DNA from: Spirochaetia bacterium
GTDB taxonomy: Bacteria > Spirochaetota > Spirochaetia > SZUA-6 > Bin103
Direction: 5' to 3'
NCBI GenBank assembly: GCA_965198005.1
Contig: CBDAOI010000004.1
Coordinates: 1,799,257-1,863,256, forward strand
Length of the DNA stretch: 64,000 bases
Under the pieces are notes generated by a model, which worked only from the letters and a program-made list of their open reading frames with translations, ran no database searches and was not told where the DNA came from. Position numbers and translations under genes: made by a program. Shown here piece after piece: positions 5,455-37,133 of this stretch (positions are counted from its first letter, which is position 1; the number at the start of each line of letters is the position of its first letter).

Positions 5455-5474
5455 AAATGCTTGTTGCACCATTC
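5455..5474 (+). repeat. 20-bp exact direct repeat AAATGCTTGTTGCACCATTC (second copy 9854-9873)
   Basis: Read directly at both positions. Confidence 0.9.
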
Positions 5475-5578
5475 GTCCCCTTGTCTCCTTGTCGGGCGTT
5501 ACCGCCCAAGAAAAGCGGCACCCAGCTACCTCCGCCTGCTGGCCGCTACAGTTGTCGCTCGCGCGTAGCGCAAGTCCC

Positions 5579-5770: not shown

Positions 5771-6021
5771 ACGGCGTCTGCGTCGAACCGGCACGGAACC
5801 ATGGGCCTGCGCCCATCTCTACTGCCGGCAGCGCGGAGCCGGTCCGGCGTGTACGGGCTGTACGGGCGTACGAATGGTGGACGTTACGACGGAATCACGT
5901 TATGCTAGCGGAGGGTTGCGCCGAGCCTAGGACTCCACCCGCCACCAAGAGCGTGGTGGATCATCGTACGACGTAGTGCGGATCCGATACTCAGTTGCGG
6001 GCATGACCCGGAGGGTAAGAG

Positions 6022-6273
6022 ATGGAGCATGACAACCGGAATCCCAAGGGTGACCAGCGTCAACCCGGCGACAACTCTGGAGCCAGCACCGGCACCAAGG
6101 TGAAGATGTACCCGTACAACGTAAACGGTGTCCGCCTTTCGACCGGCACCAAAATGGAGGCCAACCATGCCGAAACATGGAAGAATGAGCTAAATCTGGT
6201 CTCAACCGTTAAACTTGGGCTAGATCACCACGACTTCACTGGAAGGGAAACTTCAAATCTGGTCTCAAGTTAA
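6022..6273 (+). CDS. small hypothetical protein with internal repeats
   Basis: GGAGG RBS; STGTK twice and NLVS twice. Confidence 0.35.
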   Translation: MEHDNRNPKGDQRQPGDNSGASTGTKVKMYPYNVNGVRLSTGTKMEANHAETWKNELNLVSTVKLGLDHHDFTGRETSNLVSS

Positions 6274-6301
6274 ACTTGGGCTAGATCACCACGACTTCAC
6301 T
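6192..6301. repeat. two direct repeats of 49 and 47 bp separated by 14 bp
   Basis: aaatctggtctcaa(cc)gttaaacttgggctagatcaccacgacttcact at 6192-6240 and 6255-6301. Confidence 0.9.
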
Positions 6302-7394
6302 CCGGGCGAAGTCTCGTCTCCGCGAGGTTGTGCAGCCTGTTCAGGAAGTCCCTCTGCCGCACGCCATCGTCACCGCGGTCCTTGGATTGCTGCTCCGCTT
6401 CCCCGTACACACGGACCGTGTCATCATCGGAAATGAGTTCGGTTGTCGCCTCCGTTCCGAGCTCTCCAGCGGACTCTATTCTCGCACGCTCCAGGTAGAA
6501 CCTTGCAAGCTTCTGCGCCTGCTCGGGGCTACCAAGTGGCGACAGTAGAATCTGATTGTCGAGTCTGCGTCGAAACGCCGGAAGCGCGCTCCCGTACCGT
6601 CGCATCGCGTCGGGTGTCATGGCAATTACCATAAACAGGAATTTCGGAAGGGCGTCTATGATGGCGCGGAGCGCGGAGAGATACCGGACTACCGCTCTCG
6701 GGGACAGAATGCCCGCCTGTTTCTCCAACTCATCGAGTAAGAGGAAAATGCCCTTCAATACGCCAAGTTCCGTGCTCAGAAGAACGTAATCCCTCAGCAC
6801 GGTGGTCCGCGATTCCACGGTATCTAGTCGGAAACTGATGCCCAGACCGTTCCTGTGCGCGTTGAGAATACGGAATCCGAAGAACCAGTTGAGACACAGC
6901 TGAAAGAGATCGTCATCGTCTTGCTTCTTGGAGAGCGATAGCAGAGCCTGCCTCAGGTCGTAGGATCTCAGCATCGAAAGATCCGGATCCGCACTCGCAA
7001 TCACCTTCACGACCTTTTTGAGATGATCGATGCCGAGTTCTTGAAAAACCGTTCGGATCACGCCATCGAACGACTGTTCGGGATCCGCCATGTACCGCAC
7101 GATGTAGAAACCATCGAGCTCGGACTTCGCTTCCACTACTTCGCGTTCCAGGTAGTTCAACAGATTGGTCTTGCCGACTCCTTGCGTCCCGATGACCACC
7201 AGGACCTCGGATTTTTGCTCGCGGAGGAACGCGAGAATCCGGTCCTCGGCTGGCGTGTCTTCAGGAACAGGAGAATGCGGATTGCCGTAGGTCTGATTCG
7301 CTGACGGGTATGGGTTGGCAAGTACACCGAATTGCTCCAGGAGCTTACTCCGTCGATCCGAGTGCTGGTTCTGCATTCTGTCACGTAGGCTCAT
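6297..7394 (-). CDS. P-loop (AAA+-like) ATPase, putative defence protein
   Basis: Walker A GTQGVGKT, Walker B IFLLLDELE; ATGA-coupled to the upstream PIN gene. Confidence 0.85.
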   Translation of the reverse strand: MSLRDRMQNQHSDRRSKLLEQFGVLANPYPSANQTYGNPHSPVPEDTPAEDRILAFLREQKSEVLVVIGTQGVGKTNLLNYLEREVVEAKSELDGFYIVRYMADPEQSFDGVIRTVFQELGIDHLKKVVKVIASADPDLSMLRSYDLRQALLSLSKKQDDDDLFQLCLNWFFGFRILNAHRNGLGISFRLDTVESRTTVLRDYVLLSTELGVLKGIFLLLDELEKQAGILSPRAVVRYLSALRAIIDALPKFLFMVIAMTPDAMRRYGSALPAFRRRLDNQILLSPLGSPEQAQKLARFYLERARIESAGELGTEATTELISDDDTVRVYGEAEQQSKDRGDDGVRQRDFLNRLHNLAETRLRPE

Positions 7395-9424
7395 GACTCC
7401 ACCTTTGTGATCTTCAGACTCGAGCTGGACTTTCCGGGGATAAGATAGTCTCCGCGATATAGATACGCCGTCTTTACGAACGGTGGCCCGTCTTCCGGAT
7501 CCAGCACCGTCAATCGGTGCCGGTCATAGCCGGACTCCGTCGTGGAGCCTTCAGTAAACCTGTTTAGCAATCCGCGCTCGCTGGCGGTCTGAAGCCGGAG
7601 GCGTGCGATATTGGGGTGGATTCCTTCGCGGATGATCAGTTCCTCCAACCAGCTCCCAGTTGCGACCCAACCGCCACCCGGTTCTATGCTGTCATATGCG
7701 GAAACTGCGATCGTCGCGAATGAACGGTCGTCGGGCTCGCGAGGCGTGGTGAAAAAGCCGGCGCCATACACAAACGCTCCAAGGCCCGTAAGCTCCGCCA
7801 GTGCGACGCACGTCGACTTGGATCGTCCAAACGCGTGTGGGTCCACGGGATCGCCGACGGGCTGCTCCGCTAGCATCCCTTCCAACACGGCATATGACGG
7901 GAATGGGAGCAGGGCCTGACGCAGGTCCCTGCTGTCCCCGCTCCGAAGAGCAATGGCGAGCGGAGTCAGGGGCGGGGCTGCGGACCAACTCTCTTCGTCT
8001 GTAGTAATTGCGTGGCCGGACTGGAGATACCGACGGTATTCACCTATTCCGCCCAAGACGCGCAGACCAAGCGTGGCAGCGACCACGCCGATCGGCAGTC
8101 GCTGATCCGTCTCCAACGCATCCACCAACCTGAATAGTCGGTCAATACTGACCCGGTACAAATGAGGCCTCGGCGGCGGTGAGGCGCCGACATCCGGTTG
8201 CTTCCGAAGAGATGGGCGAGATTGCGCCGAATCCATGGTAACATCGTAGTCATCGCGCGTCGACGACACCGAAGCGGGAGAATCGGAGGTACGGGCAGCG
8301 TCCGGAGTCGTTCGCTTGGCACTGATCCAGAGCAAATCGTCATAGGAATGATACGGGGTCCACGCAAGGTCTTCGCCGATCGCATCGACGACGAGGGCAT
8401 CGGCGTGGTCAGCGGTGGCCAGCCGTGCCGTGCCGAAGATGGTGGCAAGCTCCCATAGCACTGCGGGAATGCTTACCGTGTACATCTCCCCGGTGAACGG
8501 GTGCAGGTTCGTGCCGGCGAGCCGTCGGCCCAGGAACGCGCTAGCCTTGGCAGCCCGGAAGAACAGAGGACGCATACCCTCGGCAAGGGCCATGCGCGCG
8601 AGACCCTGGTCGCTGGTAAGCAAAGTCACCTGGTGACCGGCGGTCACCTGTGACTGGTATCTACGGGCCGTCTCCAGAATGAGCCGATCTGCGTAGGATC
8701 GTATGCTTCCGCTCATGTTCAGACCCTGTACCGAGTCTTCGACCAGAGAGGTGCGGTCGATCTCCACGTCAGAGTGCAGCTCGAGCTGCAGGAGAGCTCG
8801 CTGGCCAGCTTGGCTCTTCAAATGACTGATCAGCATGTCAGATCGCTTCGGCTTCGACGCCCGTCTGATGCGGAGAAACTCATCAGCCATGTTCACGATT
8901 TCCATCTGTACGACCGCGGGAACCCTCACTCTCGCCACCGGATGGAGGTACCTGGACACGAAACCCAGGCCACCCTGGATCACGCCGGACGTATCGCTGA
9001 CGACGGTAGTGGGCCGCCGAAAGGGCATAGCCGCCAACGCCTGAGGATCGAATAGCGGATGGCCCAGTCCCAGACGCACCGGGATCGCACCGAGCATGTC
9101 CGCTATCCGTCGTACCTTGTCCTGCTCTGCACGTTTTTTTGCGCAAGCCACAATGCTCGTTACGCCCAGGTATTCCTCGAGCCGCTCCGCGGTCTTCTTT
9201 TGTTCAGGCGTAAGCCACTCGAATGCGCCCCGCGCGACAGCCGAAGCGCGGTACTCGCGCGTGTCCTCGTGCGCGAACAGTCGGATCTTCCCTAGCGACA
9301 AGAATTCGGGCTTCTCGAACGCGCGCTCCTCCCGTACGGATATGGTACAGACGTTGTCGTTCTCGAACATGTCGGCGATTACGTCGGTGGCGTCCGTAGG
9401 TGACGACAATCTCTGTTCACTCAT
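7391..9424 (-). CDS. large PIN-domain protein, putative defence nuclease
   Basis: PIN acidic pattern VVSDTS, VQMEI, ADRLIL, LLTSDQGL in the N-terminal half; long C-terminal extension. Confidence 0.75.
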   Translation of the reverse strand: MSEQRLSSPTDATDVIADMFENDNVCTISVREERAFEKPEFLSLGKIRLFAHEDTREYRASAVARGAFEWLTPEQKKTAERLEEYLGVTSIVACAKKRAEQDKVRRIADMLGAIPVRLGLGHPLFDPQALAAMPFRRPTTVVSDTSGVIQGGLGFVSRYLHPVARVRVPAVVQMEIVNMADEFLRIRRASKPKRSDMLISHLKSQAGQRALLQLELHSDVEIDRTSLVEDSVQGLNMSGSIRSYADRLILETARRYQSQVTAGHQVTLLTSDQGLARMALAEGMRPLFFRAAKASAFLGRRLAGTNLHPFTGEMYTVSIPAVLWELATIFGTARLATADHADALVVDAIGEDLAWTPYHSYDDLLWISAKRTTPDAARTSDSPASVSSTRDDYDVTMDSAQSRPSLRKQPDVGASPPPRPHLYRVSIDRLFRLVDALETDQRLPIGVVAATLGLRVLGGIGEYRRYLQSGHAITTDEESWSAAPPLTPLAIALRSGDSRDLRQALLPFPSYAVLEGMLAEQPVGDPVDPHAFGRSKSTCVALAELTGLGAFVYGAGFFTTPREPDDRSFATIAVSAYDSIEPGGGWVATGSWLEELIIREGIHPNIARLRLQTASERGLLNRFTEGSTTESGYDRHRLTVLDPEDGPPFVKTAYLYRGDYLIPGKSSSSLKITKVES

Positions 9425-10339
9425 CGGACACTGACCGAAATGTTGGGTTGTTCTTCGAATACATCAATCAACCAGGATAGATGATTCACCAGCACACCTG
9501 CAGACTCCCGCCGCCCCGGCCGTTCGCGCCCATCACCGCCGACTATAGCGCAGGCTCCTCCGCACCGGCAACGGAGCCACGGCAGACGCGATGCAAAGTG
9601 CCTACGGACCGGGCCACGACGTAACGTCGAGCGCGGTTGACCGCAGGCAGGATCAGATGTAATGGGTGTAAGTAGGTGTCACGCGCCGGGAGGTAGCGGC
9701 TCCCAGCACCGGTACTGCGGCTGTCCCGGAGGTAGCGGTCGGCGTGATGGCAGGCGGGGGAAATGGGTGCGAGGTTTGCCCCCGTTTGGGCCGTTTGCGG
9801 CAGGGGGGTAGCAAAGCCCTCCCAGTCGATAGCACAATGGCTATGACTGGGAGAAATGCTTGTTGCACCATTCCGCGGCGCCGCGAGCGGCCGCCCGTAG
9901 ATCGGCATGGGGCTGACCGACAGCGGCCGCGAGTTCTGCATCGGCTACCCCCTCCGTCTCGCCGGCGCCCGGGCGCGGCCTCAGCCTCACCCTTGAGCGA
10001 CCCGCCGCGAACACGCCGCCGGCACCGCCCGTGCGACACTCCACCCTCCACAGGCAACCCATCGCTGGTGACATCCCCGGCCGCTTCGGTAACGGCCGGC
10101 GCGAGTGCGTCGACCTTCAGAGGCACCACGGCGTGGCATCCCGTCCGCGGAGCCGGCTCGTCGGTTGGGGCAGCCGCTGAAGCCCGCTACAACTGCCCCA
10201 ACGATTACATCGAGTCCTCTTCATCATGCTTTCGCTGATGGTAGCGCACGCCCTCTGTCAGACTCGGGTTGACCATTGCCATGTAAAGGTGTAGCTTAAC
10301 ATCAGAGAGTGCCAAACTGAATGACAAGGCGTATTCGTC

Positions 10340-10548
10340 GCAGCACGGACCGCCGCGAAACAGAGCGAAGTGTCTCAAGATCGCTGGCGAGCGGTTCTGG
10401 GAGTTCAAGGCTCACCAGCAACGCGTTATCCGGTGCTACGACCCAAAGAGTTTACGAAGAAGACTAGAGGCAGTCGCCGAGACGTGAGATCGAAGCCGGA
10501 CGGCGGGCATACCGCGAAGTTCAACAAGAACTCGATATTGCAAAATAA
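10340..10548 (+). pseudogene. RelE/Gp49-like toxin remnant
   Basis: Three frames give GPPRNRAKC..ERFWEFKAHQQRV / FTKKT / RREIEAGRRAYREVQQELDIAK*; the 5' end is missing. Confidence 0.7.
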
Positions 10549-10561
10549 GAGGAAGAACGAG

Positions 10562-10870
10562 GTGATCGAGAATTGGGGACAACAGTACGAGGGAGATCCT
10601 GAGTACGAGTTCGACCTCCTGGCAATCGACATCGGGGAACGCATCGTTGAGCGGATGGAACAACTCCGGATCACGCGGACCGCTTTGGCGGCAGCGCTTG
10701 GTGTGAGCAAGGCGCGTATCAGCCAGATCCTCAGCGGCCACGATAACCTGACCATGAAGAGTCTCGTCGCGGTTGCGGCCGGGTTGGGGAGCCGGATTGA
10801 GCTACGGTTGAAGAGCAAGGAGAGCAATACGAAGACGACGAGGGCAACAAGGGCACGCCGCAGATGCTGA
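10562..10870 (+). CDS. XRE-family HTH antitoxin/regulator
   Basis: TRTALAAALGVSKARISQILSG..NLTMKSL; GTG follows a GAGGA RBS just after the toxin stop. Confidence 0.8.
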   Translation: MIENWGQQYEGDPEYEFDLLAIDIGERIVERMEQLRITRTALAAALGVSKARISQILSGHDNLTMKSLVAVAAGLGSRIELRLKSKESNTKTTRATRARRRC

Positions 10871-26493: not shown

Positions 26494-28149
26494 ATGACCG
26501 GTTTCGAATACATCGTCCGTATCCTCCAGGAAGAGGGGATCGAGTGGCTCGCCTGTTTCCCCAGCAACCCGATTATCGACCACGCCGCGCTGCGCGGGCT
26601 GCGGCCCGTGATGTTCCGCCACGAGCGCGGCGCCGTGATGGCGGCGGACGGCTACAGCCGCACCAGCAGCCGCCGGCGGTTCGGCGTGGTGGCCGTGCAG
26701 GCGCAGGCGGGCGCGGAGAACTCGGTGGGCGGGCTGGCCCAGGCGGCCGCCGACAACGTGCCGATCCTGTTCCTGGTGGCAGGCAACCCGCTCAACCGCG
26801 TCACGCGGCCGAACTTCTCGGCCGCCCGGGTCTATCCGGACGTGGCCAAGTCGGTGGAGACGGTGCTGCGCATCGACGAGCTGGCCAACGTGATGCGGCG
26901 GGCGTTCCACGCGCTGCGCAGCGGGCCGCCGGGACCGGTGGTGGTGGAGGTGTCGGAGGACGTGTGCGCGCAGGAGGTGCCGCCCGCGGCCTGCAACTAC
27001 CGCTCGCCGCGGCCCGCCCGCCAGGCGCCCGCCGCGGCCGACGTGGCCGCCGCCGCCGCCTTGCTGCGCGATGCCAAGCGGCCGGCAATCTGGGCGGGCG
27101 CCGGGGTGCTGGCGGCCCAGGCCAGCGCCGACCTGGTGCGGCTGGCGGAGCTGCTGCCGGCGCCGGTGTTCTGCACCATGCCCGGCAAGTCGGCCATGCC
27201 CGAGACCCATCCGCTGGCGCTCGGCGCCGGCAGCAGGGCGACCACGCTGCCCGCGCGCCGCTGGCTGACCGAGTGCGACGTGCTGCTCGCGGTCGGCGCC
27301 AGCCTCACGCGCACGTTCTACGCCCAGCCCGTGCCGCCCGCGGCGACGCTGATTCATAACAGCATCGACCCGGCGGACGTCAACAAGGACGAGGCGGCTG
27401 CGGTCGGGCTGGTGGGGGACGCCGGACTCACCCTGCAGGCGCTGATCGCCGAGCTGCAGGACGGCGCCGCCGGAGCCGCCGCGAATGCCGACGCGGTGGA
27501 GCGGCTGGCGGCGGAGGTGGCCGCGACGCGCGCGCAGTGGATGGCCACCTGGGGCCCGATTCTCACCTCCGACGAGCAGCCGCTCAGCTACTACCGGGTG
27601 GTGCACGCCCTGAACGAGGTGCTGGATGCGGACGCGAGCATCGTCACCCACGACGCCGGCGCGCCGCGCGACTGTCTGGTACCCTTCTACCGCGCCACGG
27701 TCCCGTACAGCTACGTGGGGTGGGGGAAGACCACCCACCTGGGGTTCGGCCTGCCGCTCGTGATCGGGGCCAAGCTGGCCCACCCGGACAAGTTCTGCCT
27801 GAACGTGATGGGCGATGGCGCGTTCGGGATGTCCGGCCTGGACCTGGAGACGGCGGTGCGGGCGCAGATCCCGATCACCACCGTGCTGCTGCGCAACCGC
27901 GCCATGGCCACCTACGCCGCCCGCCTCGCCGATCCGCTGTGGCAGGCGGCGCTGGCCGCCGGCGTGGGCACCTTCGGCGGCGACTATGCCGGCGTGGCGG
28001 AGTCGCTCGGCGGCACCGGGATCAGGGTGCGCACCGCCCCCGAGCTGCACGCCGCGCTGGAGCAGGCCCAGCGCCTGAACGCCGCCGGCACCACCGTGCT
28101 GATCGACGTCGAGACCAACGTGGAGGCCCGCCGCTCCCCGGACGGCTAG
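26494..28149 (+). CDS. thiamine-diphosphate-dependent enzyme (acetolactate synthase-like)
   Basis: RHERGAVMAADGY; GDGAFGM...N. Confidence 0.9.
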   Translation: MTGFEYIVRILQEEGIEWLACFPSNPIIDHAALRGLRPVMFRHERGAVMAADGYSRTSSRRRFGVVAVQAQAGAENSVGGLAQAAADNVPILFLVAGNPLNRVTRPNFSAARVYPDVAKSVETVLRIDELANVMRRAFHALRSGPPGPVVVEVSEDVCAQEVPPAACNYRSPRPARQAPAAADVAAAAALLRDAKRPAIWAGAGVLAAQASADLVRLAELLPAPVFCTMPGKSAMPETHPLALGAGSRATTLPARRWLTECDVLLAVGASLTRTFYAQPVPPAATLIHNSIDPADVNKDEAAAVGLVGDAGLTLQALIAELQDGAAGAAANADAVERLAAEVAATRAQWMATWGPILTSDEQPLSYYRVVHALNEVLDADASIVTHDAGAPRDCLVPFYRATVPYSYVGWGKTTHLGFGLPLVIGAKLAHPDKFCLNVMGDGAFGMSGLDLETAVRAQIPITTVLLRNRAMATYAARLADPLWQAALAAGVGTFGGDYAGVAESLGGTGIRVRTAPELHAALEQAQRLNAAGTTVLIDVETNVEARRSPDG

Positions 28150-28180
28150 CGCCGTAGTGCGGCATTGCGGTATGCTCGGC

Positions 28181-28209
28181 TTGACCGTCCGGCGTCACGG
28201 GGGTAAACT
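28181..28209 (+). promoter_or_regulatory. sigma70 promoter TTGACC-17-TAAACT
   Basis: Near-consensus boxes with exact 17-nt spacing and no credible downstream CDS. Confidence 0.7.
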
Positions 28210-28215
28210 TCAGTC

Positions 28216-28493
28216 ATAGGTTTCGCGCGGATATCGAAATCCCGGTGCTTCGTGCACTGCGGAGTGGAGATTCCCTTGCGGAGTTCCTGACCTTGATGTG
28301 TTGCGTCAAGTCAAGGAGCGCGGTCAAGAGGCCAGAGCGAGGACCTGGACGGGCCCGTCCTCTCCTCGTTAGCTAGCTTGGCTTAAAGGCGTGGAGACGA
28401 GAGATTGCGCAAAAATTTTTGTTAACGCGCATCCGTCGCTAACCTTGGCAACGAAGAATAGAGTAGCCGCGTCTTTTCTGGCGCGGCTATTTT
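28216..28493 (+). ncRNA. candidate structured non-coding RNA (about 275 nt), family unknown
   Basis: Promoter upstream, consecutive hairpins with G-U pairs valid on the + strand, terminator downstream. Confidence 0.55.
28464..28493 (+). terminator. intrinsic terminator, possibly bidirectional
   Basis: TAGCCGCGTC-ttttct-GGCGCGGCTA followed by TTTT. Confidence 0.7.
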
Positions 28494-29381
28494 CTATCTC
28501 ACGTTGTCGTTCGGTGCAACGTTCACGTGCAACCGACCTGCGGGAATACTCTGAGGCTCGTGGCAGCCCGGGAAGGTCATGTGCCTCCGCGGTATTTCGC
28601 AGTCGTAGTGAAAGCGTGGATCAAAGGATACGCCGAACCGCAGTCGACCTCGTATCACGCATGACGAATCGTGGGTTCCATCACGCCAGAGCGGAGCCAA
28701 ACCATGGCGGCTAATTTTTCCGGGACACTTGAATACGACGTTGCCATCTCCGACAAAGTACTTTCGTTCGCGCTTGCGAAGCAGGGAGGATACGTGCTTC
28801 AGGCTCTTTCTGAACTTGTCTTCTCCTTCTCGGTTTCGGACAGCCTGCCGTATTGGTTCACGGATATCAGAAAACGCATTTCCGAACGTCTTTGGCGGGA
28901 GCAAGAGGCATGTCCTGTTGTCCCGATTCGTTACTTCTTCGGCAATCACATGTAGCAATCCCCGCGTTTGTCGGAGGGCTCGATTGATCTCCTTGATCCA
29001 CATGTTCATTATTCGATTGCGTTGGTTGGACGTGACCATTCTCATGCTGCCCATACTTTTGACGTGCAGCGGCAAGAGGAGGGCCTCAAGGCCGAATCCA
29101 TGAAGCAACCTGCTGTCGCTCCCGTCAGATTCTTCGGCGTAGAGGACAATGAGGTTCGCATTGGTCAATAGGTTCTCGCGCTGCGCAGGCTGATGCTGCC
29201 TAAGTTCGCATGCAACGCGTTCATACAGCTTCGAGACGTAATCGTCGGTGTAACGTTCCGGATATGGAAGACCTCGCAAGGGAAGGAACACTTCCGGACG
29301 TGTCTTCCGGAGAGGAGCAGCGAGACGGTCCAGGATCGCAGGCTGAACGCCCGCTATCACAACGTAGACCTTCCGCTTCAC
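28494..29381 (-). CDS. hypothetical protein with His/Cys-rich C-terminal motifs
   Basis: 295-aa lower-GC ORF; LLLPPKTF, RH, H..C...RFG...FHYDC...CH...HVNVAPND. Confidence 0.75.
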   Translation of the reverse strand: MKRKVYVVIAGVQPAILDRLAAPLRKTRPEVFLPLRGLPYPERYTDDYVSKLYERVACELRQHQPAQRENLLTNANLIVLYAEESDGSDSRLLHGFGLEALLLPLHVKSMGSMRMVTSNQRNRIMNMWIKEINRALRQTRGLLHVIAEEVTNRDNRTCLLLPPKTFGNAFSDIREPIRQAVRNREGEDKFRKSLKHVSSLLRKRERKYFVGDGNVVFKCPGKISRHGLAPLWRDGTHDSSCVIRGRLRFGVSFDPRFHYDCEIPRRHMTFPGCHEPQSIPAGRLHVNVAPNDNVR

Positions 29382-30070
29382 GGAGACTGCCGCCGCAATT
29401 TGGAAACTACGTCTAGTGGCATAGTGACTCGTTCAAGTTCGCTGGTTTCGAGAGTATCCAATAATCGGTCGAGCAGATCACGGGGTTGTTCGGTTGACTT
29501 TCCCGAACTCAGATAGATTCTTGATTCAATTCCAGAGCGATCAAGCCAGTCCTGTGCCGCCTGCTGAACGTGGTTGGAGTCAGCCTCCGGACCCACTATG
29601 TATTCTCGCTGTATTTCTACGAATCCATCCGGTTTCTCAGCCGAAGCTGAATCTCGAAATCGCACGGGTTCATGGATGCTTATGAAACGGCTCTCGCATT
29701 TGTCTATCGGTTTGCGAAATGCGGCCCAGAAAGCGGGGTGGAAACGCAGCACCGTGTTTGCCGTCTTGCTCTGCGTTTTCTCCAGCAGAATGTCGCCCCC
29801 CCCTTCTTCAAGCAAGTCCACGCCCATCGGTATAGCTCCGACCAACTGGCTCTTTGATTGATGTTGCACGACTCGCACTTGATCGGAAAGGTGACGTTCC
29901 AAGTATTCCCGCAAGCTGCTCGAGTATTGTCTCGTAAGCTTGGATATTTCTCCATCGTCTTGAAGCCCCAGACGGCTCAAGAGCAGGGGCACCCTGTTGG
30001 TTTCCCAGTACTCGGTAACCGACCGAATGATACGACGGTTGAGATCGTCAGTACTCATGTTCGTCACCAT
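29378..30070 (-). CDS. hypothetical protein, N-terminus weakly OST-HTH/LOTUS-like
   Basis: 230 aa; PLLLSRLG...SLREYLE..L...VRV; GTGA overlap with the downstream gene. Confidence 0.7.
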   Translation of the reverse strand: MVTNMSTDDLNRRIIRSVTEYWETNRVPLLLSRLGLQDDGEISKLTRQYSSSLREYLERHLSDQVRVVQHQSKSQLVGAIPMGVDLLEEGGGDILLEKTQSKTANTVLRFHPAFWAAFRKPIDKCESRFISIHEPVRFRDSASAEKPDGFVEIQREYIVGPEADSNHVQQAAQDWLDRSGIESRIYLSSGKSTEQPRDLLDRLLDTLETSELERVTMPLDVVSKLRRQSP

Positions 30071-30078
30071 ATCGGTAG

Positions 30079-30087
30079 ATTATACCA
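30079..30087 (-). promoter_or_regulatory. perfect extended -10 TGGTATAAT
   Basis: 8 nt upstream of the ATG at 30070. Confidence 0.65.
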
Positions 30088-30129
30088 CGTCCTATCACAG
30101 TTTGGTAGCGAAGGTAGCGAAGGGCTAGC

Positions 30130-30915
30130 CTAGTGCATGGTGGAGCCGCCGGAGAGGTTGAGGGACTGGCCGGTCATGCCGCGGGCGTCGTCGGAGGCGA
30201 GGTAGACGGCCAGGCCGGCGATCTCGTCTGGTTCGAGCAGGCGGCCGATGGGGTTTGCGTCGGCCTCGCGCTGGGCGAGCGTCACGCCGCTCAGTTCCGC
30301 TTCGAACTGGAGCCGCCGCATCAGCATCACGGTGCGCGTGGCGCCCGGGCAGATGGCGTTGATCGTGACGCCGCGGCCGGCGGTTTCCAGCGCCGCGGTG
30401 CGCGTGAGCCCGATCAGGGCGTGCTTGGTCGCGGTGTAGGCGCCGGCTGCCACCAAGCCGCGCTTGCCGGCCACCGACGCCATGTTGATCACCCGGCCCC
30501 AGCCGCGTTCCGCCATCGCCGGCACCAGCGCCTTGGTCAGGAGGTAGGGCGCGGTGAGGTTGATCGCGATGCTCAAGTCCCAGAAGTCGTCGTCGTAGTC
30601 CACGATCCGGCGCGGGTTCGAGCTGCTGCCGAGCCCGGCGTTGTTGACCAGGATGTCCACCGCCGGGAAGTGGCGGGCCACGCGCTCCGGCAACCCGATC
30701 GTGGCCGCGCGGTCGCTCAGATCGACCGCCAGCGCCACCGCCGAGCGGCCCAGGGCGGTGACCTCGGCCGCGACTTGCTCGATCTCGGCGACGGTGCGCG
30801 CGGTCACCGCCACGTCCGCCCCTTCGCGCGCGAATGCCAGCGCGATGGCGCGTCCGATGCCGCGTCCGGCGCCGGTCACCAGCGCCACCCGGTTCTGCAA
30901 TTTCATACCACTCAT
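30130..30915 (-). CDS. SDR family oxidoreductase
   Basis: TGAGRGIG, NNAG, YTATK. Confidence 0.95.
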   Translation of the reverse strand: MSGMKLQNRVALVTGAGRGIGRAIALAFAREGADVAVTARTVAEIEQVAAEVTALGRSAVALAVDLSDRAATIGLPERVARHFPAVDILVNNAGLGSSSNPRRIVDYDDDFWDLSIAINLTAPYLLTKALVPAMAERGWGRVINMASVAGKRGLVAAGAYTATKHALIGLTRTAALETAGRGVTINAICPGATRTVMLMRRLQFEAELSGVTLAQREADANPIGRLLEPDEIAGLAVYLASDDARGMTGQSLNLSGGSTMH

Positions 30916-32924: not shown

Positions 32925-33103
32925 TTGGCCATTCTATCAGCGGGTGGCGAGAGTTGCCAACTGGAGATAGCATACTTTCTCATTGCCCCCGATGGGCCGA
33001 CATCGTATTCTCCCTGGTGGAAGTCCCGGTCCTTTGCGGGCTACGAGCCGACGGACCGGGATGAGTTCGTCGTGAGATGTTCCCTGTTACAAGGAGAGGA
33101 AGA

Positions 33104-33949
33104 ATGAGAGACATCAAAGATAAAGTCGCAGTGATCACCGGCGCGGGGCGCGGCATCGGCCGCGGGATCGCCCTCCACTGCGCCAAGCAAGGGATGAAGG
33201 TTGTTTTGGCCGGATTCGGGATGGAATCGCTCACCAAGACCGCCGCCGACCTGGAGGCGCTGGGGGCCGAGACGCTGATCGTCCAGACGGATGTATCCCA
33301 GGTAGAACAGGTGGAAAATCTGGCAGCAGCCACGATCGAAGCCTTTGGGCAGGTCGACCTGCTGGTGAACAACGCCGGGGTCGCGCAGCCGGGCAAGACA
33401 CTGGAGATCACACTGGACGACTGGAACTGGGTAATGGGGGTCAATTTTTACGGGGTGCTCTATGGCCTGCGTGCATTCGTCCCCCGCATGATCAAACGGA
33501 AGCAGCCCAGTCATGTGGTCAATGTCTCATCCCTTTCCGGCGTGCTCCCGGGGGGCGGGTCGTATGGGGTCTCGAAACATGCAGTGGTGGTCCTGACCGA
33601 GTCGCTCTATCACGATTTGGCCGAGTCGGCGCCCCACGTCAAGGTTTCGGTGCTCTGCCCGGGATGGGTGGCGACCGAGTTTTACCGCGTGGATCAATCT
33701 CGTCCGGAGCGTTTCAAAGGGGAGACGACCGAGGTGACCGAGAAGCACCGGGAGAATTGGCGCGGGTGGCTGGCCGCAGGAATCACGACTGACCAGGCGG
33801 CGCAGATCCTCTTCGACGGCCTGGCGCAAGACCAGCTGTACATCGGCCTCCAGGGCTTCCGGGAAGCGGGACAGGATGTCGGAGAAAAGGTCAAGAACCG
33901 GGCTGAGAATATTGTCCAGGAGAAGAACCCGCTTATCTCGTCATCCTGA
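33104..33949 (+). CDS. SDR family oxidoreductase
   Basis: TGAGRGIG, NNAG, YGVSK; GAGGA RBS. Confidence 0.9.
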   Translation: MRDIKDKVAVITGAGRGIGRGIALHCAKQGMKVVLAGFGMESLTKTAADLEALGAETLIVQTDVSQVEQVENLAAATIEAFGQVDLLVNNAGVAQPGKTLEITLDDWNWVMGVNFYGVLYGLRAFVPRMIKRKQPSHVVNVSSLSGVLPGGGSYGVSKHAVVVLTESLYHDLAESAPHVKVSVLCPGWVATEFYRVDQSRPERFKGETTEVTEKHRENWRGWLAAGITTDQAAQILFDGLAQDQLYIGLQGFREAGQDVGEKVKNRAENIVQEKNPLISSS

Positions 33950-34121
33950 GCGGCGAGGCACTAGCCGCCACGTCGGCGCGCTCACCCGCCGACAGCGTGG
34001 CCCAAATGGAAGGTCACACGGACGAACCCGTTACGTTCATCTTGCATGAGTTCCGGCTCCGTACCGTTGAACTCGCGCATTTCTCGCTGCATGATCAGCC
34101 AGCCGTGATGTTGCAGCGCGG

Positions 34122-35444
34122 CTACTGTCTGTTCCGACCAGGCTTCATTTCGATGCATGCGGGCGATGCGTTGACGGTGGCGTCCGCGGCGGCGGTCTCG
34201 GCCGTTGCGTCAGGCGGCGGGTCCGGCGCGGCCGGGGTCAGGCAGGCGCGGTTCAGCGCGCCGACGGTGGTGCAGCCGATCAGGGCCATGGTGCGCGCCA
34301 GCTCTTCCGCCAGCAGGGCGATGGCGTGGTCCACCCCCGCCTCGCCGGCGGCGCCGAGGCCGTAGAGATAGGGGCGCCCGGTCATGCAGGCGGCGGCGCC
34401 GAGCGCCACGGCCTTGGCGATGTCGCCGCCGCGGCGCACGCCGCCGTCGCAGATCACCGCCGCCCGGCCGCCGAGGGCGTCGGCTACCGGCGCCACCAGG
34501 TCGAGCGTGGCGGGCGAGCCTTCGAGCTGGCGGCCGCCGTGATTGGACAGGACGACCGCGGCGCAGCCGTGTTCGACCGCCAGCCGGGCGTCGGCCACGG
34601 TCTGGATGCCCTTGACCAGCAGCGGCCCGTCCCAGATCGAACGCAGCCACTCCAGGTCGCGCCAACTGCAGGTGGGGTCGAACTGGGACGCGATGTAACT
34701 GGACAGCGCCACCGGCGTGGACCCATCGGCGGCGCCGCGGCCGGCGAAGCAGGCGAAGGTGATCGGCTCGGCGCGGATGAAGCGCCAGGTCCACCCCGGG
34801 TGGCGGATGCCGTCGAGCAGCGTGCCGAGCCCGAGTTGCGGCGGCAGCGCGAGGCCGTGGCGGACGTCGCGTTCGCGCCGGCCTGCCACGGGCGTGTCGG
34901 CGGTGAGCATGAGCGCGCCGTACCCGGCGTCGGCGGCGCGCTGGACCAGCTCCCGCACCAGGCCCCGGTCGCGCAGCATGTAGAGCTGGAACCAGAGGTC
35001 GCCGGCGCCGGCCGCCGCCACCTCCTCGATCGAGCGCGTGCCCACGGTCGACAGGCAGTAGGGGATGCCGGCGCGGACGGCCGCGCGCGCCGGCGCCAGC
35101 TCGCCGTCCGGGTGGGCGATCCGCGTGAAGCCGGTGGGGGCGAGCACCAGCGGCAGCGCCAGCCGGCGCCCGAGCAGGGTGGTGCCGGTGTCCACCCGCG
35201 ACACGTCGCGCAGCACGCGCGGCGCCCAGCACCGGCGCCGGTAGGCGGCGCAGTTGGCGCGCATGCTCACCTCGTCCTCGGCGCCGCCGTCGACGTAGTC
35301 GAACACGCCGCGCGGCAACCGCCGCTGCGCCATCCTCCGCAGGTCCGCCACGTTGAGCGCCCGCCGCCGCAGCCACTCCTGCCGGTCGCGCGCTCGCCTC
35401 CGCAGCCGAAACACCGCCCGCAACGAGTGCAGGTCAGGAGTCAA
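34122..35444 (-). CDS. FMN-dependent alpha-hydroxy acid oxidase/dehydrogenase (LldD-like)
   Basis: FDYVDGGAEDE, SNHGGRQ, DGGVRRG; start codon uncertain. Confidence 0.9.
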   Translation of the reverse strand: MTPDLHSLRAVFRLRRRARDRQEWLRRRALNVADLRRMAQRRLPRGVFDYVDGGAEDEVSMRANCAAYRRRCWAPRVLRDVSRVDTGTTLLGRRLALPLVLAPTGFTRIAHPDGELAPARAAVRAGIPYCLSTVGTRSIEEVAAAGAGDLWFQLYMLRDRGLVRELVQRAADAGYGALMLTADTPVAGRRERDVRHGLALPPQLGLGTLLDGIRHPGWTWRFIRAEPITFACFAGRGAADGSTPVALSSYIASQFDPTCSWRDLEWLRSIWDGPLLVKGIQTVADARLAVEHGCAAVVLSNHGGRQLEGSPATLDLVAPVADALGGRAAVICDGGVRRGGDIAKAVALGAAACMTGRPYLYGLGAAGEAGVDHAIALLAEELARTMALIGCTTVGALNRACLTPAAPDPPPDATAETAAADATVNASPACIEMKPGRNRQ

Positions 35445-35992
35445 CTGACGAATTGAGTGAGCCTGGGGTATTCACGACACGCCTCTTTCAGAGATGGGGG
35501 TGCGAAACGATCAAGCCGTTGTGTTTCTTGGCACATGCGATGCAGCTCGTCTGCGAGACGGCGAACGTCTTTCTGCTTCAGATTCCGTAACTGTGGTTTG
35601 TAGTCCTGCTCCTCATCGACTTGGATTCCATCGCCGAGGTACTTGAGCCACGTTTCGATGTTTCGTTTTGGGATGGCTACGATTACCCGATCATCCGGTT
35701 GTCGCCGGGGAACGTGCTTTCTGTCGCATTCTTGATCCAACTTTGAACGTCTGGAGGCCGTCGAGATTGTATCCGCATCAGTCACCAGGAGCAGAACCGT
35801 CCTTTGTCGGTGTCGAATGGCCTGCAATTCTTGGGGGAAGCGCTCTCTTACCCACTGTTCTCCGGATCCCGTAGGACCGGGAAGAGGCAGACTATGAATG
35901 TCATGACGGCCAAAGTTGCGATGTCTCAGAAACCGACGGACGAAGCCCTCGGTTCGCATGTCTTCGCAGAGCAAGACTACTCTTGTCGCCAT
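35441..35992 (-). CDS. TOPRIM-like protein (DUF4276/RloB-like), partner of the ATPase
   Basis: LLCED, VTDAD, IETW. Confidence 0.6.
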   Translation of the reverse strand: MATRVVLLCEDMRTEGFVRRFLRHRNFGRHDIHSLPLPGPTGSGEQWVRERFPQELQAIRHRQRTVLLLVTDADTISTASRRSKLDQECDRKHVPRRQPDDRVIVAIPKRNIETWLKYLGDGIQVDEEQDYKPQLRNLKQKDVRRLADELHRMCQETQRLDRFAPPSLKEACREYPRLTQFVS

Positions 35993-36020
35993 TCGTCCGG
36001 TCCACGCTCAATGTTCCGGA

Positions 36021-37133
36021 TCAGTCGCCGTTGTCGTCCCATCCGCGTGCGATGGTCTCTGAAATCGATAGTCCGTCGACCGCGGCCTTAGGTTGGTCGC
36101 TCACCCGGGCCGGGCCATCTCCATCTCGGAAGAACCACCTGCCATGCGCGCCCGCCATATAGTCGATGGTCACCGGATGATGGGACACGACGACGATCTG
36201 TTCCAGCGACTCGCCGCACCTCTCCATCGCCTGCGCGAGCCATGGCTGAATCTCCCGCAGAGCGAGGTAGTTGTCAGGTTCGTCGATGAACAGGGAAACG
36301 CGGCGGTCGTCCGTGAGCATAGTCAGGCTGTATAGCGCAATTAAAGCTCGCTGGCCGTCGGATAGCTGATCGAGGCCATAGTCGATCGTGCTGTTGGATG
36401 GACCGCGAAACGTAACTTTGAGAGCGCGCGAGTTCTCGCCGGATTCTCTGAGTCTGAGTGAAGCGAAGCTCGGAAGAGATTCGCGCAGTGTCTCGAACAG
36501 CGCTCCTACGGAGCCCATGTTCTCCTGGGAATAGTGGCGGTACCAGCCGACAAAGTTGTCCATGAGAGGCTTAAGAAAGTCGTCTTCCGTCCTGGTTTCG
36601 GGCTTGATCAGGGGCGCACATGGACGTACGATTATGTAGTTTTGAAGATCTTTCTTGAACTTGGTCAACTTCTGATTATCGGGTCGTTCGTTCAGTGTAC
36701 CTACTCCGGAGAGCGTCCAATCGAACGGATAGGCAGGACCCTCGTTGTAGTCGTCATGGTACAGTTGAGCTTCGCCATTCCTGAATTCAAAGATCGGTCT
36801 TCCGTCATGTTCAAGGGTTTCTTTCAGTATCCTCATTCTGTCACGATCCGGGTCGTGTTCTACTTCGAGTCCGTAAACGTAAGAATGCCCATCGACGCTG
36901 GTCGCGATTTCGAAACGCTGTACGTTTCGCTTTCTGTTCAATGTCAGATCACGTGCCGGCAATACTTCGTCGATCCTGGCCCCGCGCACGACCAGATGTT
37001 GGATCCTTCGTAGTACGTCGAGCACTGACGTCTTGCCGGTGCCGTTGGCGCCAAGCAAGACGTTTGCTTCATCGAGCTCAAGTTCGAAATTGGTCAGGCA
37101 CCGGAAGTTGTCGGCATAGAGTCTCTTCAGCAT
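36021..37133 (-). CDS. AAA_21/AbiEii-like ABC-type ATPase
   Basis: NFRCL, GANGTGKT, LSDGQ, FIDEPDN, SHHP. Confidence 0.9.
   Translation of the reverse strand: MLKRLYADNFRCLTNFELELDEANVLLGANGTGKTSVLDVLRRIQHLVVRGARIDEVLPARDLTLNRKRNVQRFEIATSVDGHSYVYGLEVEHDPDRDRMRILKETLEHDGRPIFEFRNGEAQLYHDDYNEGPAYPFDWTLSGVGTLNERPDNQKLTKFKKDLQNYIIVRPCAPLIKPETRTEDDFLKPLMDNFVGWYRHYSQENMGSVGALFETLRESLPSFASLRLRESGENSRALKVTFRGPSNSTIDYGLDQLSDGQRALIALYSLTMLTDDRRVSLFIDEPDNYLALREIQPWLAQAMERCGESLEQIVVVSHHPVTIDYMAGAHGRWFFRDGDGPARVSDQPKAAVDGLSISETIARGWDDNGD

What the first reader, a model, noticed from the sequence alone, without database searches (positions are those of the whole stretch)
28181..28493. Probable novel structured ncRNA within a two-gene accessory cassette (best candidate for a new system)
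Seen: TTGACC-17-TAAACT promoter, then back-to-back stems. These are GGUUUCG/CGAAAUC (28219-28241), CGGUGC-uucgu-GCACUG (28243-28259), a weak stem at 28266-28287, UGAC-CUUGAUG/CGUCAAG-UCA (28288-28312), a long CGAGGA..GGACGGGCCCGUCC..UCCUCG hairpin (about 28330-28383) and a bulged stem (about 28396-28437), ending in a terminator that abuts the stop codon of the convergent gene. G-U wobbles work on the + strand only. The longest internal ORF I find is 26 codons. It lies in the same lower-GC insert as two unknown genes. Inference: an RNA-plus-two-protein module (RNA antitoxin, guide or scaffold), possibly antiphage.
Basis: partly seen in the sequence, partly recalled or inferred. Interest (0 to 1): 0.85.

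Follow-up and report, generated by a model that had tools for sequence, protein, structure and literature searches.

The report
New structured RNA with protein partners
A folded RNA of about 276 bases that is absent from the RNA family catalogue always sits next to the same two unknown genes as a small mobile unit in several bacterial groups; what it does is unknown, and one guess is that it keeps a harmful partner enzyme in check.

Summary
Window 28218-28493 (+) is a real, strand-specific, structured non-coding RNA with its own promoter (28181-28209). Its terminator hairpin touches the stop codon of the convergent gene p295. Rfam 15 has no match.

Twenty-six homologues give 96.6% paired cells. 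Of 49 pairs, 33 carry changes on both sides, and 0 of 500 shuffles reach that.

The RNA is tightly linked to two unannotated genes. These are p295 and p230, whose N-domain has a LOTUS/OST-HTH-like fold.
- All 12 p295 loci found in two genome sets abut the RNA.
- When I started from the protein instead, 8 of 9 metagenome loci have the RNA. The ninth is cut off by its contig end.
- Six of 18 RNA loci have lost p295. The reverse was never seen.

The 1.95-kb unit lies in a low-GC patch. It occurs patchily in the host family, in Alpha- and Gammaproteobacteria and in metagenomes. Distant p295 relatives sit on enterobacterial plasmids and predicted viral contigs.

Function is not shown. My best guess, at about 0.4, is an RNA that protects against p295, like an RNA antitoxin or immunity RNA. 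A guide or scaffold role remains open.

The parts
28181..28209 (+). Sigma-70-type promoter of the RNA (TTGACC, 17-nt spacer, TAAACT)
   Evidence: Only promoter-like site in 27500-30500. The -35 CTTGAC box is conserved at the same distance in 13 of 14 homologues.
28218..28493 (+). Structured non-coding RNA of about 276 nt
   Evidence: Covariance-model hit of 248.5 bits over model positions 1-277. Fold z -5.13 on + against -1.49 on -. 96.6% paired cells, and 33 of 49 pairs have changes on both sides across 26 homologues. No Rfam match. No conserved ORF.
28220..28398 (+). Helix 1, which closes the core: 28220-28228 pairs with 28389-28398
Evidence: 9 pairs, 97.9% paired, 2 pairs with changes on both sides.
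28229..28271 (+).
   Evidence: Most homologues fold a hairpin here with different sequences and lengths, 26 to 43 nt. In the window it appears in the MFE fold.
28272..28282 (+). Helix 2, 3 bp (UCC/GGA), inside the conserved UUCCCUUGCGGAGUU stretch
   Evidence: 92% paired, 1 pair with changes on both sides.
28283..28319 (+). Helix 3 (GUUCCU/AGGAGC) with a distal hairpin 28289-28313 that carries a conserved GUUG motif
   Evidence: 6 pairs, 5 with changes on both sides, 96.8% paired. Distal hairpin folds are shown.
28322..28383 (+). Helices 4, 5 and 6 stacked: GGUCAAG/CUUGGCU, AGCGAGGA/UCCUCGUU, GGACGG/CCGUCC
   Evidence: 21 pairs, 16 with changes on both sides, 96-99% paired. One homologue (L036) has about 80 nt inserted at the tip.
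28399..28434 (+). Variable hairpin region
   Evidence: Length and sequence differ in every lineage, but most fold a hairpin.
28435..28453 (+). Nearly invariant GUCGCUAAC ... GCAACGA segment near the 3' end
   Evidence: Invariant or nearly invariant columns. A pseudoknot with the core AGCUA was tested and is not supported.
28463..28493 (+). Terminator hairpin (28463-28473 with 28480-28490) and U run, touching the p295 stop codon
   Evidence: 10 pairs, 9 with changes on both sides. Not listed by the simple terminator scan.
28494..29381 (-). p295: 295-aa protein of an unannotated family, with a Rossmann-like N-domain and a His/Cys/Asp-rich C-domain
   Evidence: ORF. No Pfam, NCBIfam, PHROGs or PDB match, and only a weak PADLOC PglX hit at E 0.017. 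522 clusters at E<=0.001 in 1.84 billion representatives. Model pLDDT 87.9. Invariant in 65 diverse members: L161 P162 H226 C241 R248 G250 H258 D260 C273 N287.
29378..30070 (-). p230: 230-aa protein with a LOTUS/OST-HTH-like winged-helix N-domain. It overlaps the p295 start by 4 nt. The true start may be the second ATG at 30056-30058.
   Evidence: ORFs. 90 related clusters with no names. The gene call on record is 226 aa (P0121). Residues 1-83 match the LOTUS domains of TDRD7 (Z 8.6, rmsd 1.9, 71 aligned), TDRD5 (8.2) and Tejas (7.9); the next winged helix scores 6.7.
30079..30087 (-). Extended -10 box TGGTATAAT of the p230-p295 operon, 8 nt before the first ATG
   Evidence: Read from the sequence. 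A like TGTGGTAYNNT box stands before the start in L017 and L020. Not listed by the two-hexamer scan.

Best explanation
Window 28218-28493 (+) encodes a non-coding RNA of about 276 nt with a conserved multi-helix fold. It is made from its own sigma-70-type promoter and ends at a hairpin terminator that touches the stop codon of the convergent gene p295.

The RNA forms one self-contained unit of about 1.95 kb with two genes, and the unit moves horizontally. The genes are p295 (Rossmann-like N-domain, His/Cys/Asp-rich C-domain, no known family) and p230 (LOTUS/OST-HTH-like winged-helix N-domain).

Shown here: the RNA is real, which strand carries it, how it folds, and that it is tightly linked to the two genes.

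Inferred: the proteins bind the RNA, with the p230 LOTUS-like domain as the likely reader. The RNA then acts as the protective partner that keeps the p295 enzyme harmless, as an RNA antitoxin or immunity RNA does in a toxin-antitoxin or abortive-infection-type module. That would explain why p295 is never seen without the RNA, while the RNA outlives loss of the proteins.

My odds: real structured RNA about 0.95; obligate three-part module about 0.9; protective-RNA mechanism about 0.4, which is the confidence given here.
For: RNA reality and strand:
- Fold z is -5.13 on + and -1.49 on -.
- The promoter is conserved in 13 of 14 homologues.
- Across 26 homologues 96.6% of cells pair, against 83.3% in shuffles. 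33 of 49 pairs change on both sides, and 0 of 500 shuffles reach that. Slid controls give 41.6-49.1%.
- 201 of 1244 paired cells are G-U, by my sum.
- No ORF is conserved.

Linkage:
- All 7 RNA-pattern loci outside the host family have p295 adjacent in the convergent arrangement.
- Of 9 loci found through p295, 8 have the RNA right after the stop codon. The ninth has only 139 nt left before the contig end.
- In the host family (24 genomes), all 7 p295 loci abut an RNA hit.
- In a proteobacterial order (53 genomes), all 5 do.

Asymmetry of loss:
- 6 of 18 RNA loci lack p295. G001, G009, G010 and G018 have no p295 anywhere in the genome.
- Partly decayed units have lost p230 and the p295 start (G021, G504) or all of p295 (G001), but keep the RNA.
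- Two orphan loci (G018, G022) are syntenic. Flanks are 89.6-92.4% identical and the RNA 87.5%, while the remnant DNA next to the RNA no longer aligns.
- Both orphans keep the -35 box. They differ by a G-C to C-G swap at the tip of helix 6 (rows L016 and L019).

Autonomy and mobility:
- The RNA and the operon each have their own promoter.
- The unit lies in a low-GC patch.
- Distribution is patchy: p295 was found in 1 of 401 genomes sampled from the phylum, namely G000 itself.
- Flanking genes differ between loci.

RNA-binding lead: the p230 N-domain matches LOTUS domains best (weaker leads). According to the abstract seen in the listing (PMC7498356), LOTUS domains bind G-rich and G-quadruplex RNA.

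Distant branch: 4 viral-contig loci with a p230-p295 pair carry a different conserved convergent element with its own promoter and a terminator touching the stop codon. It has 68 predicted pairs, 11 with compensating changes, and the sense strand folds about 20 kcal/mol better than the antisense.
Against: - No activity of p295 is known, and toxicity is pure inference. Neither protein matches a toxin, nuclease or defence family.
- Known type III antitoxin RNAs are short tandem repeats upstream of the toxin gene on the same strand. This RNA has no repeats and is convergent.
- Chromosomal neighbours are mostly metabolic, and few match defence models.
- A small RNA gene may simply be detectable for longer than decaying protein genes, so the asymmetry of loss is suggestive and not decisive.
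- A long-kept orphan RNA fits an independent RNA function as well as an anti-addiction role.
- The simple terminator scan did not flag the 3' hairpin.
- Transcription is not shown. RNA-library contigs cover only the conserved core 28325-28402, run on into unlike sequence and so come from relatives. DNA carry-over cannot be excluded.
- The covariance model finds no RNA beside the distant homologues on plasmids and viral contigs.
Confidence: 0.4

Rival explanations
1. The RNA is a guide or scaffold. It is the specificity or assembly component of a ribonucleoprotein in which p295 is a nucleic-acid-targeting enzyme and p230 loads or reads the RNA. It would act in defence or in moving the unit, and would not restrain a toxin.
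For: Protein and RNA are strictly linked. Segments that vary between lineages sit inside a constant core. The best structural match of p295 residues 3-139 is an Argonaute MID domain (4g0m, Z 8.0, rmsd 3.5, 112 aligned), with further Argonaute/Piwi MID rows at Z 6.3-7.4. The unit moves between phyla.
Against: The MID rows do not stand above generic Rossmann, CheY and SGNH rows at Z 7.9 to 6.2, and the tool states that a best Z of 7-8 is typical background. The variable segments are closed hairpins, not open guide stretches. The only clearly single-stranded conserved motif, GUCGCUAAC, is the same in nearly all lineages, so it is not programmable. The genome holds a single copy. There are no terminal repeats or target duplications, no spacer-like arrays, and no recombinase or nuclease family match. 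This model does not predict RNA-only loci that stay intact.
Confidence: 0.2
2. The RNA has a cellular job of its own, for example as substrate, decoy or regulator of an RNA-modifying or RNA-processing enzyme (p295), with p230 as adaptor. There would be no toxin or immunity logic.
For: Orphan RNA loci keep promoter, fold and high model scores (227.8-242.5 bits) in genomes without p295. The promoter is independent and conserved. The flanks are metabolic. One neighbour is an RNA-repair ligase, PNKP_ligase.
Against: Distribution is patchy and crosses phyla, the unit sits in a low-GC patch, and it is absent from most relatives: the RNA is in 9 of 24 family genomes and 6 of 53 in a proteobacterial order. 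Relatives occur on conjugative plasmids and predicted viral contigs. All of this is typical of accessory, conflict-type genes.
Confidence: 0.12
3. The RNA is an independent small-RNA gene that serves only as a landing site, as tRNA and tmRNA genes do. The two-gene cassette would be an unrelated island inserted next to it.
For: RNA-only loci exist. The cassette always lies on the 3' side of the RNA.
Against: The RNA shares the low GC of the cassette (0.55 against about 0.72). It sits in different genomic contexts in each genome and is missing from most relatives. RNA divergence follows protein divergence: p295 at 45-55% identity goes with 221-253 bits, at 30-35% with 80-188 bits (most of these rows trained the model). 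No integrase was seen among the 25 Pfam families listed of the 79 found in the flanks. The spacing to the stop codon is fixed at 0-10 nt.
Confidence: 0.05
4. There is no separate RNA. The region would be the 3' untranslated region and terminator of the p230-p295 messenger on the - strand, or an antisense regulator of it.
For: The hairpin at 28463-28490 could also end the - strand transcript (one search shows it folding on that strand).
Against: The - strand fold is not better than chance (z -1.49). 201 of 1244 paired cells are G-U on +, and would be C-A on -. A conserved + strand promoter exists. RNA-only loci keep it. The only RNA-to-cassette match is one 10-nt word that reads the same sense in both transcripts, at chance level.
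Confidence: 0.03

Closest known systems
Type III toxin-antitoxin systems (ToxIN, CptIN, TenpIN, AvcID); features recalled, AvcID abstract seen in the listing
   Same: An RNA gene with its own terminator stands beside a protein gene on mobile, patchily spread units. The RNA is proposed to be the protective partner, and the protein is never seen without its RNA.
   Different: Type III antitoxin RNAs are short tandem repeats upstream of the toxin gene on the same strand, and are cut out by the toxin. Here there is a single 276-nt RNA with seven helices and no repeats. It is convergent, has its own promoter, and comes with two proteins that have no ToxN, AbiQ or deaminase family match.
Retron and DRT systems (non-coding RNA plus reverse transcriptase plus effector)
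   Same: A structured non-coding RNA plus two proteins in one compact accessory unit.
   Different: There is no reverse transcriptase: neither protein reaches a Pfam cut-off. Rfam gives no retron match. The RNA is convergent, not upstream.
Large structured bacterial RNAs with dedicated proteins (OLE RNA with Oap proteins, HEARO/omega RNA with IscB, bacterial Y RNA with Rsr); recalled
   Same: A long RNA with a complex fold, strong covariation, and linkage to particular protein genes.
   Different: No match to any of the 4227 Rfam 15 families at the gathering score. At E<=10 there are only chance-level rows, the best at 20.1 bits against a cut-off of 55. The partner proteins are different and unannotated.
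LOTUS / OST-HTH domain proteins (TDRD5, TDRD7, Tejas, Oskar, MARF1)
   Same: p230 residues 1-83 superpose on LOTUS domains: Z 8.6, 8.2 and 7.9, rmsd 1.9-2.1 A, 70-74 residues aligned, covering the whole domain. LOTUS domains are reported to bind G-rich RNA (PMC7498356, abstract seen in the listing).
   Different: There is no Pfam OST-HTH hit at sequence level. The rest of p230 has no match. The known bacterial pairing with NYN nucleases (recalled) is not seen here.
Argonaute MID domain
   Same: It is the best structural row for p295 residues 3-139 (Z 8.0).
   Different: It is not separated from generic Rossmann-like folds. No PIWI or PAZ domain is present. The N-domain has few conserved residues.

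Membership tests
Any Rfam 15 RNA family | Covariance-model score at or above the family's gathering score | tested here: not met
   0 matches over the whole window at gathering. Over 27900-28800 at E<=10 there are 5 rows, the best at 20.1 bits against a cut-off of 55. No tRNA or tmRNA.
Type III toxin-antitoxin | The antitoxin RNA is an array of short tandem direct repeats | tested here: not met
   No repeat family lies within the RNA beyond scattered two-copy words of 10-24 nt. The homologue alignments show a single-copy fold. Tandem Repeats Finder was not run.
Type III toxin-antitoxin | The toxin belongs to a known type III toxin family (ToxN/AbiQ, CptN, TenpN, AvcD) | tested here: not met
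   Pfam, NCBIfam, PHROGs and PADLOC give no such match for p295 or p230, nor Pfam for 65 diverse p295 members.
Type III toxin-antitoxin | The RNA neutralises the toxin by direct binding | not testable with these tools
   This needs expression and binding tests. Only the asymmetry of gene loss speaks for it.
Retron / DRT | A reverse transcriptase gene in the unit | tested here: not met
   No Pfam family reaches its cut-off for either protein.
RNA-guided mobile elements (IS110 bridge RNA, IscB/TnpB omega RNA) | A DEDD/serine recombinase or RuvC-type nuclease partner, plus element ends | tested here: not met
   No such Pfam family. No terminal inverted repeats or target duplications around 28100-30200. 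One copy in the genome.
LOTUS / OST-HTH domain (p230 N-domain) | Sequence match to Pfam PF12872 | tested here: not met
   The only Pfam row is DUF6741 at E 0.0097, below its cut-off.
LOTUS / OST-HTH domain (p230 N-domain) | Winged-helix fold of the LOTUS type | tested here: met
   The top three of 48,161 chains are LOTUS domains (Z 8.6, 8.2, 7.9; rmsd 1.9-2.1). The next winged helix scores Z 6.7. Foldseek gives TDRD7 at probability 0.69. The Atlas lead scores 0.76. The margin is modest.
Argonaute MID domain (p295 N-domain) | MID fold standing clearly above other Rossmann-like folds, with a 5'-end binding pocket | tested here: inconclusive
   Z 8.0 against 7.9 for a response regulator, with many rows at 7.4 to 6.2. 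Foldseek finds nothing at E<=0.001.
Known antiphage defence systems (PADLOC-DB 2.0) | Match to a defence-system protein model | tested here: not met
   p295 has only PglX at E 0.017 and 12.2 bits, and p230 has none. The E. coli plasmid and viral-contig homologues have none.

The most novel reading that the evidence does not exclude
This is a new kind of RNA-centred conflict module. A 276-nt RNA with a complex fold is read by a bacterial LOTUS-domain protein and controls a new His/Cys/Asp-rich enzyme, as its inhibitor and possibly as the sensor that releases it on infection. The partnership is old enough that the RNA has diverged beyond sequence recognition between branches, while keeping the same convergent layout with the terminator at the stop codon. 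It reaches from symbiont genomes to plasmids of Klebsiella and E. coli. It would also be the first natural RNA partner for a prokaryotic LOTUS domain.
Probability: 0.25. Interest if true: 0.88.

Novelty: new variant of a known kind. Interest (0 to 1): 0.78.

Why it matters
Few large bacterial RNAs with complex folds and unknown function are known, and each has opened new biology. This one has strong covariation support, two dedicated protein partners that no family library describes, and a clear genetic pattern: the protein is never found without the RNA.

The p295 family is large, at 522 clusters at 50% identity. Two of its distant members sit on complete E. coli plasmids (2 of 5426 genomes). 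Toxicity and rescue, phage challenge and RNA-binding tests are therefore directly doable in laboratory strains.

If the RNA is the protective partner, the known range of RNA antitoxins would extend from short repeats to a large structured RNA. If it is a guide or scaffold, this would be a new ribonucleoprotein enzyme. Either way it offers the first candidate RNA ligand for a bacterial LOTUS-like domain.

Tried and rejected
Searches that found nothing
- Known RNA: Rfam at gathering and at E<=10, and ARAGORN, gave nothing.
- Known proteins, by sequence: Pfam, PADLOC, NCBIfam, PHROGs and PDB, with single proteins and with profiles, gave nothing usable.
- Known proteins, by structure: Foldseek against PDB and BFVD gave no match at E<=0.001. 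The ESM Atlas gave no usable hit for p295.
- The C-domain of p295 (about residues 200-295) was never tested alone. I considered HNH-like, 2-His-1-carboxylate and zinc-site readings of H226/H237/C241/H258/D260/C261/C273/H274 from memory only and left them as untested ideas.
- Literature: four word searches and one accession search (0 papers) found no description of this RNA or these proteins. In two 2026 preprints on mining non-coding elements I saw only passages found by term search. They do not mention LOTUS or OST-HTH, and the few 'convergent' and 'antitoxin' passages concern other systems. Their supplementary tables are closed and might list this intergenic family.

Tests without a verdict or without support
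- Complex prediction of p295 with p230 gave no verdict. It counts neither way.
- Empty site: the TPP-enzyme gene on the left has orthologues in 10 of 10 genus relatives, but the DNA beyond its stop codon is not shared. The insertion borders therefore could not be read.
- Terminal repeats or target duplications: none.
- Antisense pairing of the RNA with the operon or its leader: none. The upstream regions are not conserved.
- Pseudoknot between the core AGCUA and the tail UCGCU: 81.6% paired, equal to the shuffles. Not supported.
- Small protein inside the RNA: rejected.
- Defence-island context: 75 flanking ORFs from 16 loci gave mostly metabolic Pfam families and only single-member PADLOC hits. 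There is no recurrent partner.
- Expression: of 14 runs that hold part of the stretch, two are RNA libraries. Their contigs cover only 28325-28402, belong to relatives and run on into unlike sequence. They also cover 29852-30121 of this organism at low depth. This does not show transcription of the window's RNA.
- Model R1 and the sequence profiles find no RNA beside the distant homologues L070, L072, L076, L078 and L079. The class-2 profile finds only its own four loci. L077 has no sequence beyond the gene.
- The fold of the E. coli plasmid spacer does not tell the strands apart: z -2.98 against -2.24.
Full report
WHAT IS THERE

The region lies between two convergent genes. On the left a thiamine-pyrophosphate enzyme gene ends at 28149 (+). 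On the right a 295-codon ORF (p295, 28494-29381, -) is preceded by a 230-codon ORF (p230, 29378-30070, -) that overlaps it by 4 nt.

GC falls from 0.70-0.77 to 0.52-0.56 between about 28200 and 30000.

The only promoter-like site in 27500-30500 is TTGACC-17-TAAACT at 28181-28209.

The + strand 28215-28495 folds at -120.9 kcal/mol (z -5.13; 0 of 200 shuffles fold as well). The - strand gives z -1.49.

Rfam 15 has no match at gathering scores in the whole window and only chance-level rows at E<=10. ARAGORN finds nothing.

HOMOLOGUES AND FOLD

A DNA search of 61 related genomes gave six full-length copies at 75-82% identity. In each, the similarity starts a few bases after the -10 box and ends at the terminator.

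A 26-letter pattern from the conserved core found 13 loci in one-genome-per-species contigs. Seven of them are in Alpha- and Gammaproteobacterial assemblies.

Aligned, 13 of 14 copies keep a CTTGAC -35 box at a fixed distance, while the spacer varies.

A covariance model built from 19 copies recovered 26 copies. On that alignment:
- 96.6% of 1244 cells pair, against 83.3% in shuffles.
- 33 of 49 pairs carry changes on both sides, and 0 of 500 shuffles reach any of the five measures.
- Sliding the partners by 1-3 columns drops pairing to 41.6-49.1%.
- The alignment is fitted to the model, which favours the structure. However, RNAalifold on a plain MAFFT alignment had already given 26 of 49 pairs with compensating changes.

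In window coordinates the helices are:
- 28220-28228 with 28389-28398
- 28272-28274 with 28280-28282
- 28283-28288 with 28314-28319
- 28322-28328 with 28377-28383
- 28336-28343 with 28363-28370
- 28347-28352 with 28355-28360
- terminator: 28463-28473 with 28480-28490

Between the helices lie hairpins that vary in length and sequence and a nearly invariant GUCGCUAAC...GCAACGA segment.

G-U pairs make up 201 of the 1244 paired cells, by my sum. The fold therefore exists on the + strand only.

Longest ORFs differ in frame, place and length (21-68 codons) among the 26 copies.

The local hairpin 28219-28241 has no comparative support. The longest internal ORF is 43 codons, not 26.

LINKAGE TO THE TWO GENES

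All 7 proteobacterial RNA loci carry p295 (39-49% identity) directly after the terminator. p230 stands before it, whole in 6 and cut by the locus end in 1.

Starting from the protein instead, 9 metagenome loci encode p295 relatives at 27-41% identity.
- A sequence profile finds the RNA just beyond the stop codon, on the opposite strand, in 7 of them.
- The covariance model adds L042.
- The ninth locus ends 139 nt after the stop codon.

In the host family (24 genomes) the model finds 12 RNA loci in 9 genomes, and the p295 profile finds 7 loci in 5 genomes. Every p295 locus abuts an RNA hit.

In the order around one proteobacterial carrier (53 genomes) the RNA is in 6 genomes and p295 in 5, and again all p295 loci abut the RNA.

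Taken together, 12 of 12 p295 loci have the RNA, while 6 of 18 RNA loci lack p295.
- Four genomes (G001, G009, G010, G018) have the RNA and no p295 anywhere.
- Decayed units have lost p230 plus the p295 start (G021, G504) or all of p295 (G001), and keep the RNA.
- The orphan loci of G018 and G022 are orthologous. Flanks are 89.6-92.4% identical and the RNA 87.5%, while the remnant DNA beside it no longer aligns.
- Both keep the -35 box and differ by a G-C to C-G swap at the tip of helix 6.

THE PROTEINS

Neither protein matches a family in Pfam, NCBIfam, PHROGs or the PDB by sequence, and PADLOC gives only one weak row.

p295 belongs to a family of 256 clusters at 90% identity, or 522 at 50%. 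Among the 150 best-scoring representatives, the full-length ones are about 280-314 aa and none is longer.

Across 65 members down to 21% identity the invariant residues are L161, P162, H226, C241, R248, G250, H258, D260, C273 and N287. H237, Y259, C261, H274, N291, D292 and R295 are nearly invariant. This points to a metal or catalytic site in the C-domain. No fold match was obtained for that part.

The p295 model is confident (pLDDT 87.9, pTM 0.88). Its N-domain is Rossmann-like. Argonaute MID is the top row (Z 8.0), but it is not separated from generic folds.

The p230 model has pLDDT 82.5. Residues 1-83 match the LOTUS domains of TDRD7, TDRD5 and Tejas (Z 8.6, 8.2, 7.9; rmsd about 2 A). These stand above other winged helices, which score 6.7 and lower. 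Weaker leads agree.

LOTUS domains are reported to bind G-rich RNA (PMC7498356; I saw the abstract start in the listing).

SPREAD

In 401 genomes sampled from the phylum, p295 is in G000 only.

Flanking genes differ from locus to locus and are mostly metabolic. Few match defence models.

Distant p295 relatives (24-31% identity) lie on 17 plasmid records: Klebsiella 12, Enterobacter 3, E. coli 1 and Synechocystis 1. Eight more lie on IMG/VR contigs. There are none in the phage collection.

The E. coli plasmid protein is a clear family member (hhalign probability 99.8%, E 3.3e-29). Its 135-aa upstream partner shares only the last 29 residues or so with p230 (probability 50%). A Gabija system lies 1.6 kb away, beyond an IS110.

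Seven of the 8 viral-contig loci have a p230 relative upstream. Model R1 finds no RNA in any of these distant loci.

Four of them (L071, L073, L074, L075) share a different conserved convergent element of about 310-335 nt.
- It has a TTGCAA-type promoter and a terminator at the stop codon.
- It has 68 predicted pairs, 11 with compensating changes.
- Its sense strand folds about 20 kcal/mol better than the antisense.

The layout, if not the sequence, is therefore kept in a distant branch. For L070, L072, L076, L078 and L079 an RNA is not established.

EXPRESSION

Fourteen public runs hold part of the stretch, and two of them are RNA libraries. Their contigs overlap only the conserved core 28325-28402 and continue into unlike sequence. 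They are homologous RNAs of other community members, at contig depths of 41 and 19.7. The p230 start region of this organism is covered at depths of 2.4-4.8. This is a weak hint that relatives are expressed and is not proof.

In one run, depth over the core is 167 against about 22 elsewhere. Many related copies therefore exist in that community.

HOW IT MOST LIKELY WORKS

Shown: an autonomous RNA gene, its fold, and its obligate linkage to p230 and p295.

Inferred: the RNA is bound by the proteins and acts as the protective partner of p295. Three facts favour this.
- p295 never occurs without the RNA.
- Decay always removes or truncates the protein genes first.
- Orphan RNAs stay intact.

This is the pattern expected for an antitoxin or immunity gene. 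The known idea that orphan antitoxins protect against incoming addiction modules is recalled, not tested here.

Against it: no toxic activity is known, the RNA does not look like any known RNA antitoxin, and defence neighbours are rare. A guide or scaffold role and an independent cellular role remain open. A landing-site role and a 3'-UTR reading are unlikely.

COMPARISON AND NOVELTY

The module works most like a type III toxin-antitoxin pair or an RNA-containing defence unit, but it fails the defining features of each family that I could test: no repeats, no known toxin family, no reverse transcriptase, no recombinase and no Rfam family.

I found no description in four word searches and one accession search. 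Two recent preprints were checked by term search only, and their supplements are closed.

I rate it a new variant of a known kind: a structured RNA with dedicated protein partners on a mobile unit. The RNA family is new, and so are both protein families.

Noticed in passing
window 1-21000, 33001-34000, 35400-37000, 55001-56000, 59001-61000: Many other low-GC patches (0.48-0.65 against about 0.70-0.77) lie in the same window. The RNA unit therefore sits in a generally mosaic stretch of the chromosome.
   Followed up: no
L078 (E. coli plasmid NZ_CP019904.1), locus 4270-10564: A distant p295 homologue with a 135-aa partner lies on a conjugative IncFII plasmid, followed by a 497-nt spacer, an IS110 transposase and a Gabija system (GajA at E=0). 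The whole cassette is in 2 of 5426 complete E. coli genomes.
   Followed up: partly
L069 2860-3075 (G022:C1:604359-604574): Genome G022 holds three RNA copies: one intact unit, one orphan, and a second divergent unit (RNA at 79.5 bits beside a p295 at E 4e-67). Two subtypes can therefore coexist in one genome.
   Followed up: partly
L036 4877-5221 (-): This RNA homologue carries an insertion of about 80 nt at the tip of helix 6 that folds on its own, while the rest of the fold is kept.
   Followed up: no
window 28307-28444 in run X1: Contig depth over the conserved RNA core is 167 against about 22 over the rest of the unit. Many related RNAs from other organisms are present in the same community.
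   Followed up: no
L079 (Synechocystis plasmid CP101710.1), locus 4001-4570: A p295-like reading frame (31% identity) has no annotated feature listed under it in the plasmid gene table. It lies near a 3'-5' exoribonuclease gene and a WYL-domain gene.
   Followed up: no
window 28391-28714 (+): A 107-codon GTG ORF starts inside the RNA and runs antisense through the 3' end of p295. It is most likely spurious.
   Followed up: no
host family genomes G001-G023: Public titles call the relatives' assemblies 'Spirochaetia bacterium'. They are 2-8 Mb, while the sampled genomes listed from the same phylum are about 1-3 Mb, and the window itself has about 70% GC. That makes an unusual lineage.
   Followed up: no
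flanks of the RNA units in 16 loci (alignment A6): One neighbouring gene is an RNA-repair ligase (PNKP_ligase, E 8.4e-179) and one is a RecD-like helicase. Each was seen once.
   Followed up: no
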